Assembly: GCA_964344235.1 (NCBI GenBank)
Contig: CAYFMJ010000007.1
Coordinates: 1-39,511, forward strand
Source: an uncultured Methanosarcinales archaeon
Lineage (GTDB): Archaea; Nanobdellota; Nanobdellia; Woesearchaeales; GW2011-AR9
DNA length: 39,511 bases
Reading direction: 5' to 3'
A program made the translations under genes and the position numbers. Positions 8,603 through 25,659 of the stretch are shown here, in pieces (positions within the stretch are counted from its first letter, which is position 1; each line of letters opens with the position of its first letter). The notes under the pieces were generated by a model. That model saw only the letters and a program-made list of their open reading frames with translations. It did not search any database and was not told the origin of the DNA.

Positions 8603-10900
8603 TTATTCCTGAGAAACTAACCAAGAAGCAAGCCTTTCACGGTTTGGTTTTAATAAGCCAGTAGATTGCAAATGAGATTCCATTTCTGTTTCAATTGGCT
8701 CTATGTTCTTAGTTTGTCGGTTCCTTGCTTCAAAGGGCCCCTCATCACTATCTTGGTAAGATCTTGTTTCTTCATATCCTTTCGTTGAGGGTAAAGAAAT
8801 GATCTCTGTGCCTTTGCCAACATACTGTTCAGACATCTCAGCAATATCGCTTGACCTGTAGGTGTAGCAACCAGCGGAGGTTCTTCCTTTTTTTGCGAAA
8901 GTATCTTCAGTATTATGAAACAAAACTACACTCCCCATTCCCGTGTAAGGGTTGCTTCGCAGTTTATATGCATCATGGCCACCCTCATTTAAAGTCTCTA
9001 AAGCAGCATCACGTTCTTCCAAAGAGATCACACCCGTTTGATACGCTTTTTCTACATCATGGGGCCGAGGATAGTTCAAGAGTGCAGCGTGGGGATATTT
9101 TTCGCTACGGAAGCGGACATCTTCAGTGAGGCGTAATCTTCCTTCAGGAGTCACATAATTCCCCTCAAATTGGGGTTTACCATCTTCAGTTAAAACGGGG
9201 TTGGCAGACTTGTCGCCAAGAGTCCTACCAGTTGAAGTTATATAGGTTTTAACAACTTTTCCCGAGGTAACATCAACAACATGTGACAATTGTTGTGATT
9301 TGTCACCAACAATAACGTAGCGTAAATGATTTGGAATTTCTAAAGCATTTTCTTGTAATCTAATTTCTAGATACTCATCAATCAAAGAAGTTCCAACTCC
9401 TGAGAAGACATAAGAACAGCTATCACCCAAACAGTGTTCTTGACTGCTAACATCAAGAAAGTCATAATCATTAGTGGGGGGGATTACACGTGCCCCGTTA
9501 TTGGCATCAGTGACAACAGTATACTCTCTCTCGTCATTAACAACAACGGCCAATTCAAAAATTGCCGATGCATGGAATTCGGATTGGACTTCCGTAGAGG
9601 TCGGAGCGGACTTTACAGAAGTTCGTTCATTGAATTTAAGTCCTTCCACTAATTCAAACTCTGTATCACCATTTAGCATTCTTAACAATGGTTGATCTGG
9701 ATTGCCCGTTACAGTAATTAAAGGAGCGTAAAGTTTTCCATCATCCGTAAATTCATCTCGACGGCTTTCAATTTTAATAAAAGTCGAATCGCTCAAAGTC
9801 GTCATTCTTAGTTGAGTATTGGCATCGGAGGAATAAGAATGGACATAATTCTTATCAAGAAACCCCATAGTAACATCAGAACCAGGTCTAGCAATAAGAG
9901 TGTCGGAACCAAACGCGATGTAATTAACGTTGCTTTCCAATGGAGTGCTGGTAAAACTGACGCGCAAGTCATTAGAAGTAGTAATTAAAACGTTATTTAA
10001 TCGGATATCGTTGCCAGGCATCACTAAAGACTGAGATCCCTGAAAGTGAATTTGTGCTCTGCTTAAGGAATCATCTAGAACGATAGAGCCTTGATCTGAA
10101 GGGTCGGCTTGACCGAAAATGCCAGCGAGGTCGGTAACTTCAACAGTAAAGGGGCTTGTAATTTTTTCTTTATTTGGGCCAACAATAACATGAGTTTTAG
10201 GAGGACGCACTTCAATAGTTTCAGTGGTCACTACAAAAAGAGAATCTTTAAAGTAGTTAGATAGAGTAACTTGATTTTTTGTGGAGGAAAGAACGCCACT
10301 CTCAGAGAGCTGACAGCCAAGATCACCACAAACGCTTGCATCGAGTGCATCTATTTTAGCACCGTTCCATTCTTTAGATTTTGTATCAACAAACTTGTTA
10401 AACTCTGTTTCATCTAAATGTTCAATATTCTTCACAAGGAAATATGTTTTTGATATTTGTTTCCTGGTCATGAGGCTATATTGGTTCTCTGAAAAGTCGC
10501 CAACCACCAGATGAAGGTTAGATAATTTTATATTTTTAACATCTAGTTTTTGTACTTGTTCGACAGAAAGTTCTTCCAATTGAGATGAAGATAGTTTTCT
10601 AGTGATAACAAAAATGTTCTCTGGAGGAATACTCGCCACATTGGTAATTGCCTTTACCTGTTTTGTACTTAATTGTTGATATTGGGTAGCTGATAAAGAC
10701 TCAACAACCAAATCTATTTTATCAGGAGGAATCTTTGAGGCCGAGAGAAGTTGAATCTGTGAGCTATCTAACGCACTATAATCACTCGACTTGTAATCAA
10801 ATTTGTCGGGGAAATTAGAGTCAGAAAAATCAGGTTCATCGTCTGCAAATGCCATTACTGTAAAAAGCAGGAGGATGATGACTGGAAGGTAAAGTTTCAT
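8603..10900 (-). CDS. Secreted 765-aa protein with N-terminal helical repeats and a C-terminal YkuD-family L,D-transpeptidase/carboxypeptidase domain
   Basis: Signal peptide MKLYLPVIILLLFTVMAFA. C-terminal GDK...TPEG...LNYP..D...VLFH-x15-C(TSAGC)...GT motifs; His codon at 8915-8917, Cys codon at 8867-8869. Confidence 0.8.
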   Translation of the reverse strand: MKLYLPVIILLLFTVMAFADDEPDFSDSNFPDKFDYKSSDYSALDSSQIQLLSASKIPPDKIDLVVESLSATQYQQLSTKQVKAITNVASIPPENIFVITRKLSSSQLEELSVEQVQKLDVKNIKLSNLHLVVGDFSENQYSLMTRKQISKTYFLVKNIEHLDETEFNKFVDTKSKEWNGAKIDALDASVCGDLGCQLSESGVLSSTKNQVTLSNYFKDSLFVVTTETIEVRPPKTHVIVGPNKEKITSPFTVEVTDLAGIFGQADPSDQGSIVLDDSLSRAQIHFQGSQSLVMPGNDIRLNNVLITTSNDLRVSFTSTPLESNVNYIAFGSDTLIARPGSDVTMGFLDKNYVHSYSSDANTQLRMTTLSDSTFIKIESRRDEFTDDGKLYAPLITVTGNPDQPLLRMLNGDTEFELVEGLKFNERTSVKSAPTSTEVQSEFHASAIFELAVVVNDEREYTVVTDANNGARVIPPTNDYDFLDVSSQEHCLGDSCSYVFSGVGTSLIDEYLEIRLQENALEIPNHLRYVIVGDKSQQLSHVVDVTSGKVVKTYITSTGRTLGDKSANPVLTEDGKPQFEGNYVTPEGRLRLTEDVRFRSEKYPHAALLNYPRPHDVEKAYQTGVISLEERDAALETLNEGGHDAYKLRSNPYTGMGSVVLFHNTEDTFAKKGRTSAGCYTYRSSDIAEMSEQYVGKGTEIISLPSTKGYEETRSYQDSDEGPFEARNRQTKNIEPIETEMESHLQSTGLLKPNRERLASWLVSQE
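10440..10750 (-). repeat. Three degenerate 33-34 aa protein repeats
   Basis: KIPPDKIDLVVESLSATQYQQLSTKQV / SIPPENIFVITRKLSSSQLEELSVEQV / NIKLSNLHLVVGDFSENQYSLMTRKQI. Confidence 0.6.
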
Positions 10901-23670: not shown

Positions 23671-25659
23671 CTATTCAAATTCCGGCAGCGGAACAAGTGT
23701 ACTTTTTGCGTCAATATCTGTTAACAATGTAAAGAGATCATCTTGGCTGCCACTTTCTTCAGAGACGACGTGGAATGTTAACTGTTGGGCATTTTGAAGT
23801 TGTGAAAATGGAACTGTCCAGTTGGTTGCATATGCCCCTGTTAACTGTTGATTATCAAAGACACGCACTTCTAGTTGGTACGTAAAGTCAGCATCAGCGA
23901 GGAATTCCATTTTTTGGAAACTCTGTACTTGCTCATCTGTTGCTGAGGCAATGACCAGCGTTTCATCGTGGAATGGCTGACCAGATAGTTGGGAGAGTGT
24001 TGTGTTCTTATCAAAGCTAATGCGGATGGAAACGGTTTCATCTGTGTCAAGTATAACGCCCGGCAAAGGAGTGTTACCAGCAAGTTCATGTTTGAGTACT
24101 TTGATCTTGGAGGCAGGGAATTCGTATAATGGTGCTAAATTAAGTTCAAAAAGGCTGCCATCTTTAGTGACGACTCTCTGCCAGTCTTCTTTGTAGCCTT
24201 CTTTTTCTGCTCTCAGGATACCACCGACACAGTAGGGGATGTTAATGGAAGAACCGGCTTGATAGCCCGAGTTAGCAAAGTTAAATTCAGTGTTGCCGAG
24301 AGCACATTCATATTTGATACACGTCATACTAAGGTCTGCTTCACTAAGGGGTTGTTGATCGTACGTTCCTTCCAGATTGTCTATAGTTTCCCACGTTAAG
24401 ATTGTAACGGGGACTGTTTTTTTACCACAATACACATCATCATCAATAAAGCTTAAGGAAGAACCAGGTCTTGCTACTAGCGGAGTTTCTCGGTTTGGTA
24501 AATTACGAATAAGATGAACGGAAAAAGCTAAGTTAAATGTGTAATCACTATCTTCATCATATACTTGCACAAGAACAGGGTAGACAACATCATAGGTAAA
24601 TTTCCATGACTGGAGGCAAAGTGCAGAGAGAAGTTGTTGGCCCCCTAAAGTTCCTGATTGCATCTTGTTACCTTGCGTTGGCGTTACCTGGAAAACCATA
24701 GGGTAATTGTTATACTTGAACTGCACGCTTAGATCAGGGGAGGTAAATTCGTTGCCAAGATTCCAAACATAATGGTTTTCGTAGTAGGGAAATTCTTCGG
24801 GGAATTCTACGAACTCCGTTCCTTGCACTTTAAGTTGGTTGAGGTTTACTCGAATTAAATCTTGCAGGGTTTCTTTTGTTTCAGTAACTTTCCATGTTTT
24901 CTTGGAGCAGGAAAGGTCTAGGCCAGAGACAGGTACTTTTGGATGTTCTAGTGCAATTAAGTCCTGGGTAATGTCTTCAAATTTTAATTCTGCTAATTCT
25001 TGTTCGATGATGGCCGTGCCCAGTTCATGAATTTTTTTGAGTTTGACAGGGGATTCAGCATTATGTTGGAGAAGCTGGGAAACGGTTTCACCTTCTTTTG
25101 TTCGCACGTCAAGATGCCATTCTACATTGAATTGCACGGAGTTGTCAATAATTTGTGTATCTGCAGTGATGTCGCTCTTCTCAACGAAGTCATATGTTTC
25201 GGCAAATGCTCCCTCTCCAAAGACACAGGAGCGTAGGTTGTTTTCGATGTATTGGTCAATCCGCTGTTTGATATCCTGCAATGGCGGGATGTTGGTGGTA
25301 GTACCATACGCCCAGAACGGTACGACATGTGCCGGGGAAACGCGTAAGGAAGAGCTGGCGTCATTAGCGATGATGGAAGGTACGGTTAAATAACCTCCCT
25401 GCAAGCCAATTTGGAAGAGAGCGTCATTACCAAGTTGTTCAATACAGGCGGAGATAAGACTTTCCACGGAGCCTTTCTTTGTTGGTGAGAGTTCTCCTGG
25501 CGTAAATGTGAAGATTTCTGAGCGGAGAGCGATTAGGAGGATAACTGCAAGAAGGATAACAATACCTAAAATTATGAAGAGTGTTACTTGACCTTGTTTG
25601 TTCTTGAAAGTATTAGAAATAGCACTATTTTTAGACTGTAAACACCTCTTTTTGTACAT
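23671..25659 (-). CDS. Membrane-anchored 662-aa protein with class III-like signal peptide; first gene of the surface operon
   Basis: NKQG|QVTLFIILGIVILL. The N-terminal ~250 aa are paralogous to 10897-11796. TATA box ~23 nt upstream. Confidence 0.82.
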   Translation of the reverse strand: MYKKRCLQSKNSAISNTFKNKQGQVTLFIILGIVILLAVILLIALRSEIFTFTPGELSPTKKGSVESLISACIEQLGNDALFQIGLQGGYLTVPSIIANDASSSLRVSPAHVVPFWAYGTTTNIPPLQDIKQRIDQYIENNLRSCVFGEGAFAETYDFVEKSDITADTQIIDNSVQFNVEWHLDVRTKEGETVSQLLQHNAESPVKLKKIHELGTAIIEQELAELKFEDITQDLIALEHPKVPVSGLDLSCSKKTWKVTETKETLQDLIRVNLNQLKVQGTEFVEFPEEFPYYENHYVWNLGNEFTSPDLSVQFKYNNYPMVFQVTPTQGNKMQSGTLGGQQLLSALCLQSWKFTYDVVYPVLVQVYDEDSDYTFNLAFSVHLIRNLPNRETPLVARPGSSLSFIDDDVYCGKKTVPVTILTWETIDNLEGTYDQQPLSEADLSMTCIKYECALGNTEFNFANSGYQAGSSINIPYCVGGILRAEKEGYKEDWQRVVTKDGSLFELNLAPLYEFPASKIKVLKHELAGNTPLPGVILDTDETVSIRISFDKNTTLSQLSGQPFHDETLVIASATDEQVQSFQKMEFLADADFTYQLEVRVFDNQQLTGAYATNWTVPFSQLQNAQQLTFHVVSEESGSQDDLFTLLTDIDAKSTLVPLPEFE

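What the first reader, a model, noticed from the sequence alone, without database searches (positions are those of the whole stretch)
8603..25659. Modular 'pilin-like anchor + wall-lytic giant protein' operons in an archaeon: candidate apparatus for breaching bacterial cell walls
Seen: two operons share one design. The first is 11796->8603 (KRGQ protein, then the L,D-transpeptidase-family protein, 4-nt overlap). The second is 25659->14567 (KQGQ protein, 2000-aa protein ending in a lambda-type transglycosylase, pilin-like Ig protein, then phosphoesterase-SGNH-M23), with gaps of 26, -4 and -17 nt. Every enzyme has a signal peptide, and each operon has an archaeal TATA box. Established: these enzyme families cut the glycan strand, the peptide cross-links and L,D linkages of murein; archaea lack murein, and isolated peptidoglycan hydrolases have been reported in some archaea. 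Inference: the co-transcribed set is a surface-displayed, contact-dependent machine that opens a bacterial host or prey wall, with interchangeable catalytic tips on conserved scaffolds.
Basis: partly seen in the sequence, partly recalled or inferred. Interest (0 to 1): 0.93.

Follow-up and report, generated by a model that had tools for sequence, protein, structure and literature searches.

The report
Archaeal surface scaffold with wall-cutting tips
A tiny DPANN archaeon with no bacterial-type wall pairs pilin-like anchor proteins with giant secreted proteins; related species end the same giant in different enzymes that cut bacterial cell walls, which suggests these archaea physically engage bacteria.

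Summary
Both operons, the gene spacings, signal peptides, TATA boxes and most domain calls are real. M23 is below Pfam's threshold and SGNH is only plausible.

The KxGQ proteins belong to a large uncharacterised family:
- It has about 8,500 clusters in public data.
- It occurs in 291 of 301 genomes of the order and in sister orders.
- Its class III (prepilin-type) signal is almost invariant.

A K662-type gene is followed directly by a giant homologous to the 2,000-aa protein in at least 51 of 60 sampled loci. Among 47 complete giants, the only Pfam families in the C-terminal 500 aa are murein hydrolases: NlpC/P60, M23, M74, GH73 and SLT, once each. Ours carries a lambda-type lysozyme. In one relative the same lysozyme domain sits on the operon's fourth gene. 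Those downstream enzymes share a 45-aa Cys motif found nowhere else in this genome.

So "swappable tips on a conserved scaffold" is supported, with limits:
- 41 of 47 giants have no recognisable tip.
- The YkuD partner is an orphan.
- Partners of short K proteins are mostly not wall enzymes.
- Surface display, contact dependence and a bacterial host remain inferred.

Giant murein-lytic proteins of Woesearchaeota are already published; the operon architecture is not. This scan has met the same system in at least five other genomes.

The parts
25682..25689 (-). TATA box (TTTATAAA) of operon 2, 22 nt upstream of the K662 ATG
   Evidence: sequence read
23671..25659 (-). K662: class III-signal (prepilin-type) protein. 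N-terminal helix, family-specific alpha/beta domain (~55-400), then a stack of transthyretin/CnaB-like beta-sandwich domains
   Evidence: motif MKK[RK][GA]|Q[IV]TxFIIxG is near-invariant in 59 orthologs
17642..23644 (-). G2000: Sec-secreted giant scaffold with 46 Cys. N-terminal fn3/Ig domains, conserved body with no convincing fold match, C-terminal hydrolase tip
17645..18172 (-). Lambda-type (GH104) lytic transglycosylase/lysozyme tip of G2000 (residues ~1825-2000), catalytic Glu motif AWAEG
   Evidence: PDB 1am7/3d3d E 1e-8; phage endolysins ~32% identity; GC3 like the body
17070..17645 (-). I191: small pilin-like protein. Class III-type N-terminus with Glu at +5. Conserved after the giant in all 9 same-family genomes examined
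14567..17086 (-). M839: secreted multi-enzyme protein in the variable 'X slot'. Metallophosphoesterase (16307-16993), SGNH-like module (~15407-15994), Cys tag, M23-like domain (14753-15061)
15197..15334 (-). ~45-aa Cys tag CxxxxCxxIDx[VA]W...GWV (M839 residues ~585-630), shared only with proteins encoded after giants
   Evidence: jackhmmer over all sampled loci and all ORFs of the genome
11819..11826 (-). TATA box (TTTATATA) of operon 1, 22 nt upstream of ATG 11796
   Evidence: sequence read
10897..11796 (-). K299 (listed as K306 from an upstream GTG): short K-family paralog made of the class III signal plus the family N-domain only
8603..10900 (-). Y765: secreted partner of the short K protein. 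N-terminal repeats and a C-terminal YkuD (L,D-transpeptidase fold) domain at 8807-9319

Best explanation
The window holds two copies of a lineage-wide two-gene module of Woesearchaeota-type DPANN archaea. Each copy is a 'K' protein followed by its own large Sec-secreted partner, with overlapping or closely spaced genes.

The K protein has a prepilin-type (class III) signal. It is presumably cut by the genome's class III signal peptidase. It would then either be held in the membrane by its N-terminal helix or be built into a short type-4-filament-like structure.

The K662-giant pair is the core, near-universal version. The giant is a cysteine-rich scaffold, and its free C-terminus, together with the next genes in the operon, forms an insertion slot. 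Different lineages have independently placed murein hydrolases there: lambda-type lysozyme here, and M74, GH73, M23, NlpC/P60 or SLT elsewhere. Downstream enzymes such as M839 carry a short Cys tag that may dock them to the complex.

The most likely function is a cell-surface adhesion and attack structure that brings wall-cutting enzymes against bacterial murein. The purpose would be attachment to, feeding on or killing of bacteria.

Shown here: gene order, conservation, domain identities, tip diversity, the signal motif, and no Mur ligase found in a 96%-complete genome. Inferred: processing, K-giant binding, surface display, docking by the tag, enzyme activity, and a bacterial target organism.
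For: - K family found in 291/301 genomes of the order and 17/21 genomes of sister orders; 8,553 cluster representatives, with the domain N-terminal in every one of the 150 listed hits.
- A giant follows K662-type genes in at least 51 of 60 loci, mostly with a 4-nt overlap.
- In the C-terminal 500 aa of 47 giants, only murein-hydrolase Pfam families are found, five different ones, plus the lambda lysozyme here.
- The same lysozyme domain is on the fourth gene in G338.
- The tag is restricted to post-giant proteins and one giant tail.
- The class III motif is near-invariant. The prepilin peptidase is flanked by pilin-like genes, and an ATPase is present.
- The paralogous C1 locus joins K855 and a 2,061-aa protein to about 10 small pilin-like genes.
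- No Mur ligase was found in a 96%-complete genome.
- Short K genes are followed by a large secreted protein in 17 of 18 loci.
- Synteny with PAC2 is kept in independent assemblies.
Against: - 41 of 47 giants have no recognisable hydrolase. Pfam also missed our own tip, so the true rate may be higher.
- Y765 is an orphan. Partners of short K proteins are mostly unannotatable; one has LysM, one M64 and one a CBM.
- No T2SSF-type platform protein was detected; there is only an unverified 10-TM candidate.
- The M23-like domain of M839 lacks the first His of HxH and scores below Pfam's cut-off.
- There are no expression, localisation, activity or host data.
- Codon adaptation is unremarkable.
Confidence: 0.5

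Rival explanations
1. Two-component S-layer or envelope lattice. K662 would be a SlaB-like membrane-anchored stalk and the giant a SlaA-like canopy protein. The hydrolase domains would be occasional decorations of the cell coat, not parts of a dedicated attack organelle.
For: The pair is near-universal, adjacent and usually a single K662-type copy per genome. SlaB is among the top Foldseek hits for K662 (8qox_B, E 1.6e-6; VIA Z 8.8 over residues 413-513). The K C-terminal half is a beta-sandwich stalk.
Against: The match to SlaB is to a generic transthyretin/CnaB-like module with a low TM-score. K is anchored N-terminally through a strictly conserved prepilin-type motif, which a plain anchor would not need. 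The giant has 46 Cys, which from my own knowledge is unusual for S-layer proteins. Codon adaptation is mid-range (57th and 77th percentile against DnaK at the 97th; a weak test). K paralogs pair with unrelated partners.
Confidence: 0.2
2. General display or secretion module for nutrient scavenging. K-partner pairs expose assorted binding and hydrolytic proteins, in a bindosome-like way, to harvest detrital polymers. These would include murein fragments from dead bacteria, with no living bacterial host or prey involved.
For: Partner cargo is diverse: LysM, M64, CBM_4_9 and an FGE-like domain. Class III-signal functional proteins built on type-4-filament machinery are an established archaeal theme (PMC13705601). 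Most giants have no hydrolase.
Against: The only enzymatic domains recognised on giant C-termini are murein hydrolases from six families. They include endo-acting lytic transglycosylases and endopeptidases typical of wall breaching. The enzymes are tethered to a scaffold of about 1,800 aa and not released as small proteins.
Confidence: 0.22
3. Artefact: the bacterial or phage-type hydrolase domains result from a chimeric assembly or contamination of the bin.
For: The domains are typical of bacteria and phages.
Against: The lysozyme is in frame at the end of a conserved archaeal gene. Its GC and GC3 match the body and the genome. A related copy sits in the same operon of an independently assembled relative. 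Flanking archaeal genes (PAC2, TFB, GatD) and synteny are conserved. Estimated contamination is 0.6%.
Confidence: 0.02

Closest known systems
Large extracellular murein lytic-transglycosylase proteins of Woesearchaeota/Pacearchaeota (fam00969 of Castelle et al. 2021, PMC8204110; Vigneron et al. 2022, PMC9723730)
   Same: Giant secreted proteins with a murein-cleaving domain, from the same lineages, proposed to bind or degrade bacterial walls. G2000 probably belongs to the same protein family, but I could not compare it with the published family.
   Different: Those papers describe single proteins annotated by an SLT/GH23 domain. They do not describe the conserved class III-signal partner, the operon, the fact that most orthologs lack the domain, the six alternative hydrolase families at the same position, or the tag on downstream enzymes. 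The tip here is lambda-type (GH104), not GH23.
Archaeal peptidoglycan hydrolases that kill bacteria (PLoS Biol 2025, PMC12352652)
   Same: Archaea without murein encode secreted modular PG hydrolases. That survey reports PGH homologs as particularly prominent and diverse in Nanoarchaeota.
   Different: That work treats PGHs as stand-alone modular enzymes. The words 'pilin' and 'operon' do not occur in its text. Here the hydrolases are appended to, or encoded beside, a conserved giant scaffold.
Bindosome / functionalised type-4 filaments of archaea (Saccharolobus GlcS/AraS with BasEF; PMC13705601)
   Same: Large functional proteins carry a class III signal and are thought to be mounted on type-4-filament machinery. 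The genes lie away from the ATPase and platform genes.
   Different: Bindosome subunits are sugar-binding proteins next to ABC transporters. K proteins have a family-specific domain and pair with giant secreted partners. That paper reports T4F systems as largely lacking in DPANN.
Bacterial minor-pilin/PilY1 tip complexes of type IV pili
   Same: Pilin-like proteins are encoded with a large Sec-secreted non-pilin protein that they present. The C1 paralog locus sits in a run of small pilin-like genes.
   Different: There is no sequence or fold similarity to PilY1 or to bacterial minor pilins, and tip location is not shown. This is an analogy from my own knowledge only.
Cellulosome scaffoldin-dockerin systems
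   Same: A large non-catalytic scaffold is combined with interchangeable enzymes that share a short module (the Cys tag).
   Different: There is no cohesin or dockerin homology, binding of the tag to anything is untested, and some enzymes are fused directly to the scaffold.
SlaA/SlaB S-layer of Sulfolobales
   Same: Adjacent genes encode a giant secreted protein and a membrane-anchored beta-sandwich stalk protein.
   Different: The anchor is N-terminal and prepilin-type, the giant is Cys-rich, and only a generic domain match was found.

Membership tests
Lambda-type lysozyme / lytic transglycosylase (GH104; PDB 1am7) | Sequence homology over the whole catalytic domain | tested here: met
   phmmer E 1e-8, query 30-189 against chain 8-142 of 154-158; 325 phage records cover at least 80% of the query
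Lambda-type lysozyme / lytic transglycosylase (GH104; PDB 1am7) | Catalytic Glu in the AWSEG motif (Glu19 of lambda R, from my own knowledge) | tested here: met
   AWAEG aligns with AWSEG
Lambda-type lysozyme / lytic transglycosylase (GH104; PDB 1am7) | Cleaves murein glycan strands, forming 1,6-anhydro-MurNAc | not testable with these tools
   needs an enzyme assay
YkuD L,D-transpeptidase fold (PF03734) | Pfam score over the gathering cut-off | tested here: met
   29 bits against 23.4, residues 528-698
YkuD L,D-transpeptidase fold (PF03734) | Catalytic His and Cys (H...[ST]xGC motif, from my own knowledge) | tested here: met
   HNTEDTFAKKGRTSAGCY
Peptidase M23 (PF01551) | Pfam score over the gathering cut-off | tested here: not met
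   24.9 bits against 28.7. BLASTP to a bona fide M23 tip of a relative gives 2.4e-5. So it is M23-like and homologous, but divergent.
Peptidase M23 (PF01551) | HxxxD and HxH metal/catalytic motifs | tested here: inconclusive
   HVGID is present; HxH reads MLH, with the first His replaced by Met
SGNH/GDSL hydrolase | Conserved blocks I, III and V (GDS, GxN, DxxH) and a profile match | tested here: inconclusive
   Motifs GASN / SGNG / DQLH seen by eye. No Pfam or PDB sequence hit. ESM-feature hits are all GDSL but score 0.86, below the 0.9 mark. Homologous segments occur in relatives' proteins that have a canonical FIGDSHS block.
Archaeal class III signal peptide (type IV pilin-like) proteins | Short basic leader, G/A at -1, conserved +1 residue and a hydrophobic helix | tested here: met
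   MKK[RK][GA]|Q[IV]TxFIIxG; Q 59/59, T 56/59, F 57/59; model helix 23-50
Archaeal class III signal peptide (type IV pilin-like) proteins | Class III signal peptidase and assembly ATPase/platform encoded in the genome | tested here: inconclusive
   Peptidase_A24 51.7 bits and T2SSE 54 bits are present. There is no PF00482 platform hit, only an unverified 10-TM candidate.
Archaeal class III signal peptide (type IV pilin-like) proteins | Cleavage by the peptidase and incorporation into a filament | not testable with these tools
   needs N-terminal sequencing or mass spectrometry, and imaging
SlaA/SlaB-type S-layer | Homology or a whole-protein fold match to SlaA/SlaB | tested here: inconclusive
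   Only one ~90-residue beta-sandwich of K662 matches SlaB (Z 8.8, rmsd 2.3, 85 aligned). The giant body has no match with Z of 8 or more.
Giant murein-transglycosylase proteins of Woese/Pacearchaeota (fam00969) | Giant secreted protein of these lineages with a murein lytic domain | tested here: met
   2,000 aa, signal peptide, lambda-type domain. ESM Atlas relatives of the K662 partner are labelled Nanobdellota / Ca. Woesearchaeota. Identity with the published family itself was not tested.

The most novel reading that the evidence does not exclude
Woesearchaeota-type archaea carry a type-4-filament-linked, cellulosome-like attack organelle. Prepilin-type K proteins mount a giant cysteine-rich scaffold on the cell surface. 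Murein hydrolases are either fused to its tip or docked through a dedicated 45-aa Cys tag, and the device opens the walls of living bacteria. That would make a large part of this archaeal radiation episymbionts or predators of bacteria and not of archaea.
Probability: 0.25. Interest if true: 0.85.

Novelty: new variant of a known kind. Interest (0 to 1): 0.62.

Why it matters
The hosts and lifestyles of Woesearchaeota and Pacearchaeota, among the most diverse and abundant uncultured archaea, are unknown. All cultivated DPANN live on other archaea.

A near-universal surface module has repeatedly and independently acquired six different families of murein hydrolase at the same position. This is stronger comparative evidence than a single annotated domain that these cells meet bacterial walls.

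It also names concrete, testable parts: the K anchor, the giant scaffold, the small pilin, and the tagged enzymes. These can be used for antibodies, pull-downs, zymograms and imaging. In addition it defines a family of more than 8,000 clusters that has no annotation.

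Tried and rejected
- Complex prediction of the K662 N-domain (55-405) with the giant core (residues 1040-1500) scored 0.00, which is no verdict, so it counts neither for nor against binding.
- Fold searches of the giant body found nothing. The best Foldseek E was 3.6e-3. VIA gave Z of 7.7 or less, only on Ig/CBM-like sandwiches and coiled coil. 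The model is of moderate quality (pLDDT 68) and long, so this does not show a new fold.
- The K662 N-domain had no match apart from one generic Z 7.0 row.
- PDB sequence searches of whole M839, of its SGNH region and of Y765 gave nothing useful. The M23 region gave only TagE at E 0.21.
- NCBIfam gave no family for K662, K299, I191 or Y765.
- Searching the large protein database for other giants with the lambda tip found only one unrelated 1,362-aa protein. That search is limited to relatives sharing exact short words.
- The codon-adaptation test for S-layer-like expression was uninformative.
- I rejected the idea that operon 1 as such is a conserved design with a wall enzyme. Only the 'short K + secreted partner' pairing is conserved.
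- I rejected a prophage origin. The module is a core gene pair, syntenic with housekeeping genes.

Full report
**What is in the window.** The window is a whole 39.5-kb contig (C7) of a 1.19-Mb genome. The genome is 96% complete with 0.6% contamination. TFIIB, GatD and PAC2 mark it as archaeal. ESM Atlas relatives of its proteins are labelled Nanobdellota / Ca. Woesearchaeota. Both operons have a TTTATA(A/T)A box 22 nt upstream of an ATG. For operon 1 this supports the start at 11796 (MQKRGQ...). The composition is even across the region. The lysozyme tip has the GC3 of the giant's body and of the genome.

**Domain calls.**
- The C-terminal ~175 residues of the 2,000-aa protein (G2000) are a lambda-type lysozyme/lytic transglycosylase. 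PDB 1am7/3d3d match at E 1e-8, the catalytic motif AWAEG is present, and the nearest phage endolysins are about 32% identical.
- Y765 has a YkuD domain above Pfam's cut-off, with His and Cys in place.
- M839 has a solid metallophosphoesterase domain.
- M839 also has an M23-like domain below Pfam's cut-off (24.9 against 28.7 bits). Its HxH motif reads MLH. It aligns to a genuine M23 tip of a relative.
- The middle module of M839 is SGNH-like by motifs, by weak language-model features and by homology to relatives that have a canonical GDS block. No profile confirms it.
- Y765, G2000 and M839 have Sec-type signals and no further membrane segment.

**The K family.** The two KxGQ proteins share about 200 N-terminal residues. 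The genome holds two more paralogs. K796 on C6 is followed by 1,094-aa and 897-aa ORFs. K855 on C1 is followed by 356-aa and 2,061-aa proteins and then about ten small pilin-like genes.

A profile of the N-domain finds the family in 291 of 301 genomes of the order, usually 2-8 copies each (the tally includes seven unpublished genomes). It is found in 17 of 21 sampled genomes of sister orders. It matches 8,553 cluster representatives in public data, and in every one of the 150 listed hits the domain is at the N-terminus. Pfam and NCBIfam have no model for it.

Across 59 K662 orthologs the N-terminus reads M-K-K-[RK]-[G/A]|Q-[IV]-T-x-F-I-I-x-G, with Q in 59/59, T in 56/59 and F in 57/59. That is a canonical archaeal class III (prepilin-type) signal, and its conservation goes beyond what a membrane anchor needs.

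The genome encodes a Peptidase_A24 homolog flanked by pilin-like genes, and a T2SSE-type ATPase. No T2SSF platform was detected. A 10-TM protein about 3 kb downstream of the ATPase gene is an untested candidate.

A confident AlphaFold model of K662 (pLDDT 88) shows three parts: the N-terminal helix, an alpha/beta domain with relatives only among Nanobdellota hypothetical proteins, and a C-terminal stack of transthyretin/CnaB-like sandwiches of the kind found in Gram-positive pilins and SlaB.

**The scaffold.** I sampled 60 K662-type loci from different genera. The next gene was a 1,300-2,300-aa homolog of G2000's body in at least 51, mostly with a 4-nt overlap. The remaining loci were contig ends, artefacts of my ORF caller, or two interrupted genes. 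In several genomes a K796-type operon lies directly upstream, so the C6 and C7 loci of this genome form one super-locus elsewhere. PAC2 sits upstream of K662 in independently assembled relatives. The body of the giant (model pLDDT 68) has no convincing structural relative.

**The tips.** BLAST found the lambda tip in none of the other giants. A word-limited search of 5.8 billion proteins found only one unrelated giant that carries it.

A Pfam scan of the last 500 residues of 47 complete giants returned five families, each once, and all five are murein hydrolases:

| Genome | Tip family |
|---|---|
| G001 | NlpC/P60 |
| G092 | M23 |
| G094 (same family as ours) | M74 |
| G038 | GH73 glucosaminidase |
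| G231 | SLT |

With our GH104 domain, six different murein-cleaving families occupy the same C-terminal position on orthologous scaffolds. No other kind of domain was recognised there. Forty-one giants had no recognisable tip. Pfam also missed ours, so this is an upper bound on truly tipless giants.

**The downstream slot.** In the nine genomes of the same family that I examined, a small protein like I191 follows the giant. Its N-terminus is class III-like with Glu at +5. In other families a ~270-aa membrane protein takes that place. The fourth gene is variable:

| Genome | Fourth gene ('X slot') |
|---|---|
| This genome | Metallophos + SGNH-like + M23-like (M839) |
| G247 | M23-like |
| G094 | SGNH-like |
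| G338 | SGNH + lambda lysozyme (E 2e-27 to our tip in direct comparison, 35% identity; PDB E 4e-8) |
| G185, G307 | FGE-like |
| G305 | none |

So the same hydrolase domain is found either fused to the giant or on the neighbouring secreted enzyme.

These downstream enzymes share a ~45-aa module, CxxxxCxxIDx[VA]W...GWV, between Ser/Thr/Pro linkers. An iterated search over all sampled loci and every ORF of this genome found it only in such post-giant proteins and once in the tail of a giant. Earlier notes of this scan pointed me to such a tag. The test here is my own, on a small sample.

**Operon 1.** Y765 has no homolog in 30 relatives, 18 of them in the same family. Short K paralogs are common, however. 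In 17 of 18 informative loci they are followed directly by a large protein, mostly with a Sec-type signal. Of 17 such partners, Pfam recognised only one LysM, one Peptidase_M64 and one CBM. The conserved design is therefore 'K plus cognate secreted partner'. A wall enzyme as the partner is the exception.

**Interpretation.** The evidence supports a conserved surface module whose distal end and neighbouring slot have repeatedly recruited murein hydrolases, in an organism where no Mur ligase was found. I consider a tethered apparatus that engages bacterial walls the most likely reading, with a confidence of about 0.5.

The evidence does not show processing of K, K-giant binding (the one complex prediction gave no verdict), surface location, enzyme activity or a bacterial partner.

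Three rivals remain:
- An S-layer-like K/giant pair with occasional decorations.
- A general display system for scavenging detrital polymers.
- An assembly artefact. This is very unlikely given synteny, composition and the second copy of the domain in a relative's operon.

**What is known.** Giant murein-transglycosylase proteins of Woese/Pacearchaeota and the idea that they act on bacteria are published (PMC8204110, PMC9723730), as is bacteriolytic activity of archaeal PG hydrolases (PMC12352652). A 2026 survey of archaeal type-4 filaments develops the concept of class III-signal functional proteins, but it reports such systems as largely lacking in DPANN and does not mention this family (PMC13705601). 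In the searchable literature I found no description of the K family, the K-giant operon, the tip diversity or the tag. This scan has reported the same system from at least five other genomes. One of those reports was later corrected, because giants are not always followed by wall-cutting enzymes. That agrees with my counts.

**Claims resting on unpublished genomes.** Only the 291/301 tally includes G112, G121, G183, G206, G208, G210 and G245. No locus-level claim uses them.

Noticed in passing
window 32310-36716 (-): A 1,468-aa class-A-PBP-like protein in a genome where no Mur ligase was found. It has a very basic N-terminus, a TM anchor (~79-95), a GT51 domain (Pfam 5e-32, intact EDANFWEHDG motif), and SxxK/SxN motifs with PBP-like spacing but no nearby KTG. 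TIGR02074 scores 6.6e-58, below its cut-off. GT51 occurs patchily in 8 of 31 relatives, in large ORFs. A murein synthase fold in a murein-less archaeon is unexplained; it might bind or act on host lipid II or glycan.
   Followed up: partly
G000 C1:138953-162557 (loci L004, L005): A third K-family locus: a 1,639-aa protein, K855, a 356-aa and a 2,061-aa protein (CarboxypepD_reg, fn3), then about ten consecutive small genes with class III-like N-termini. It looks like a pilus or minor-pilin operon and links the K family to type-4-filament genes.
   Followed up: partly
G000 C6:29332-38543 (locus L003): K796, 1,094-aa, 897-aa and 267-aa membrane-protein genes with 4-nt overlaps. In other genomes this operon lies directly upstream of the K662-giant operon, so the super-locus is split or rearranged in this genome. 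None of these proteins has a Pfam family.
   Followed up: partly
window 7123-7959 (-): A DUF368/VCA0040-like (undecaprenyl-phosphate translocase-like) membrane protein, Pfam E 6e-76, lies just downstream of operon 1. A 130-aa membrane protein (8131-8523) sits between them.
   Followed up: no
L111 (G338:C44) giant residues ~1805-1970: The tail of this relative's giant is two copies of a ~75-aa Cys-rich module (W-N-x-Y-x-C ... C-C-x-P) in place of a hydrolase. It could be a binding module, for example for the tag on downstream enzymes.
   Followed up: no
window 2493-6618 (-): A bacterial-type DnaK-DnaJ-GrpE chaperone set, with an HD-domain gene between dnaK and dnaJ. This agrees with the published observation that many DPANN carry this bacterial system (PMC8204110).
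   Followed up: no
L022 (G185:C5) 8290-10584 and L113 (G307:C10) 1-1557: X-slot proteins in two relatives carry an FGE/sulfatase-modifying-factor-like domain (PDB CalU17 E 2.7e-6) together with the Cys tag. This shows that the slot also takes cargo that does not target murein.
   Followed up: partly
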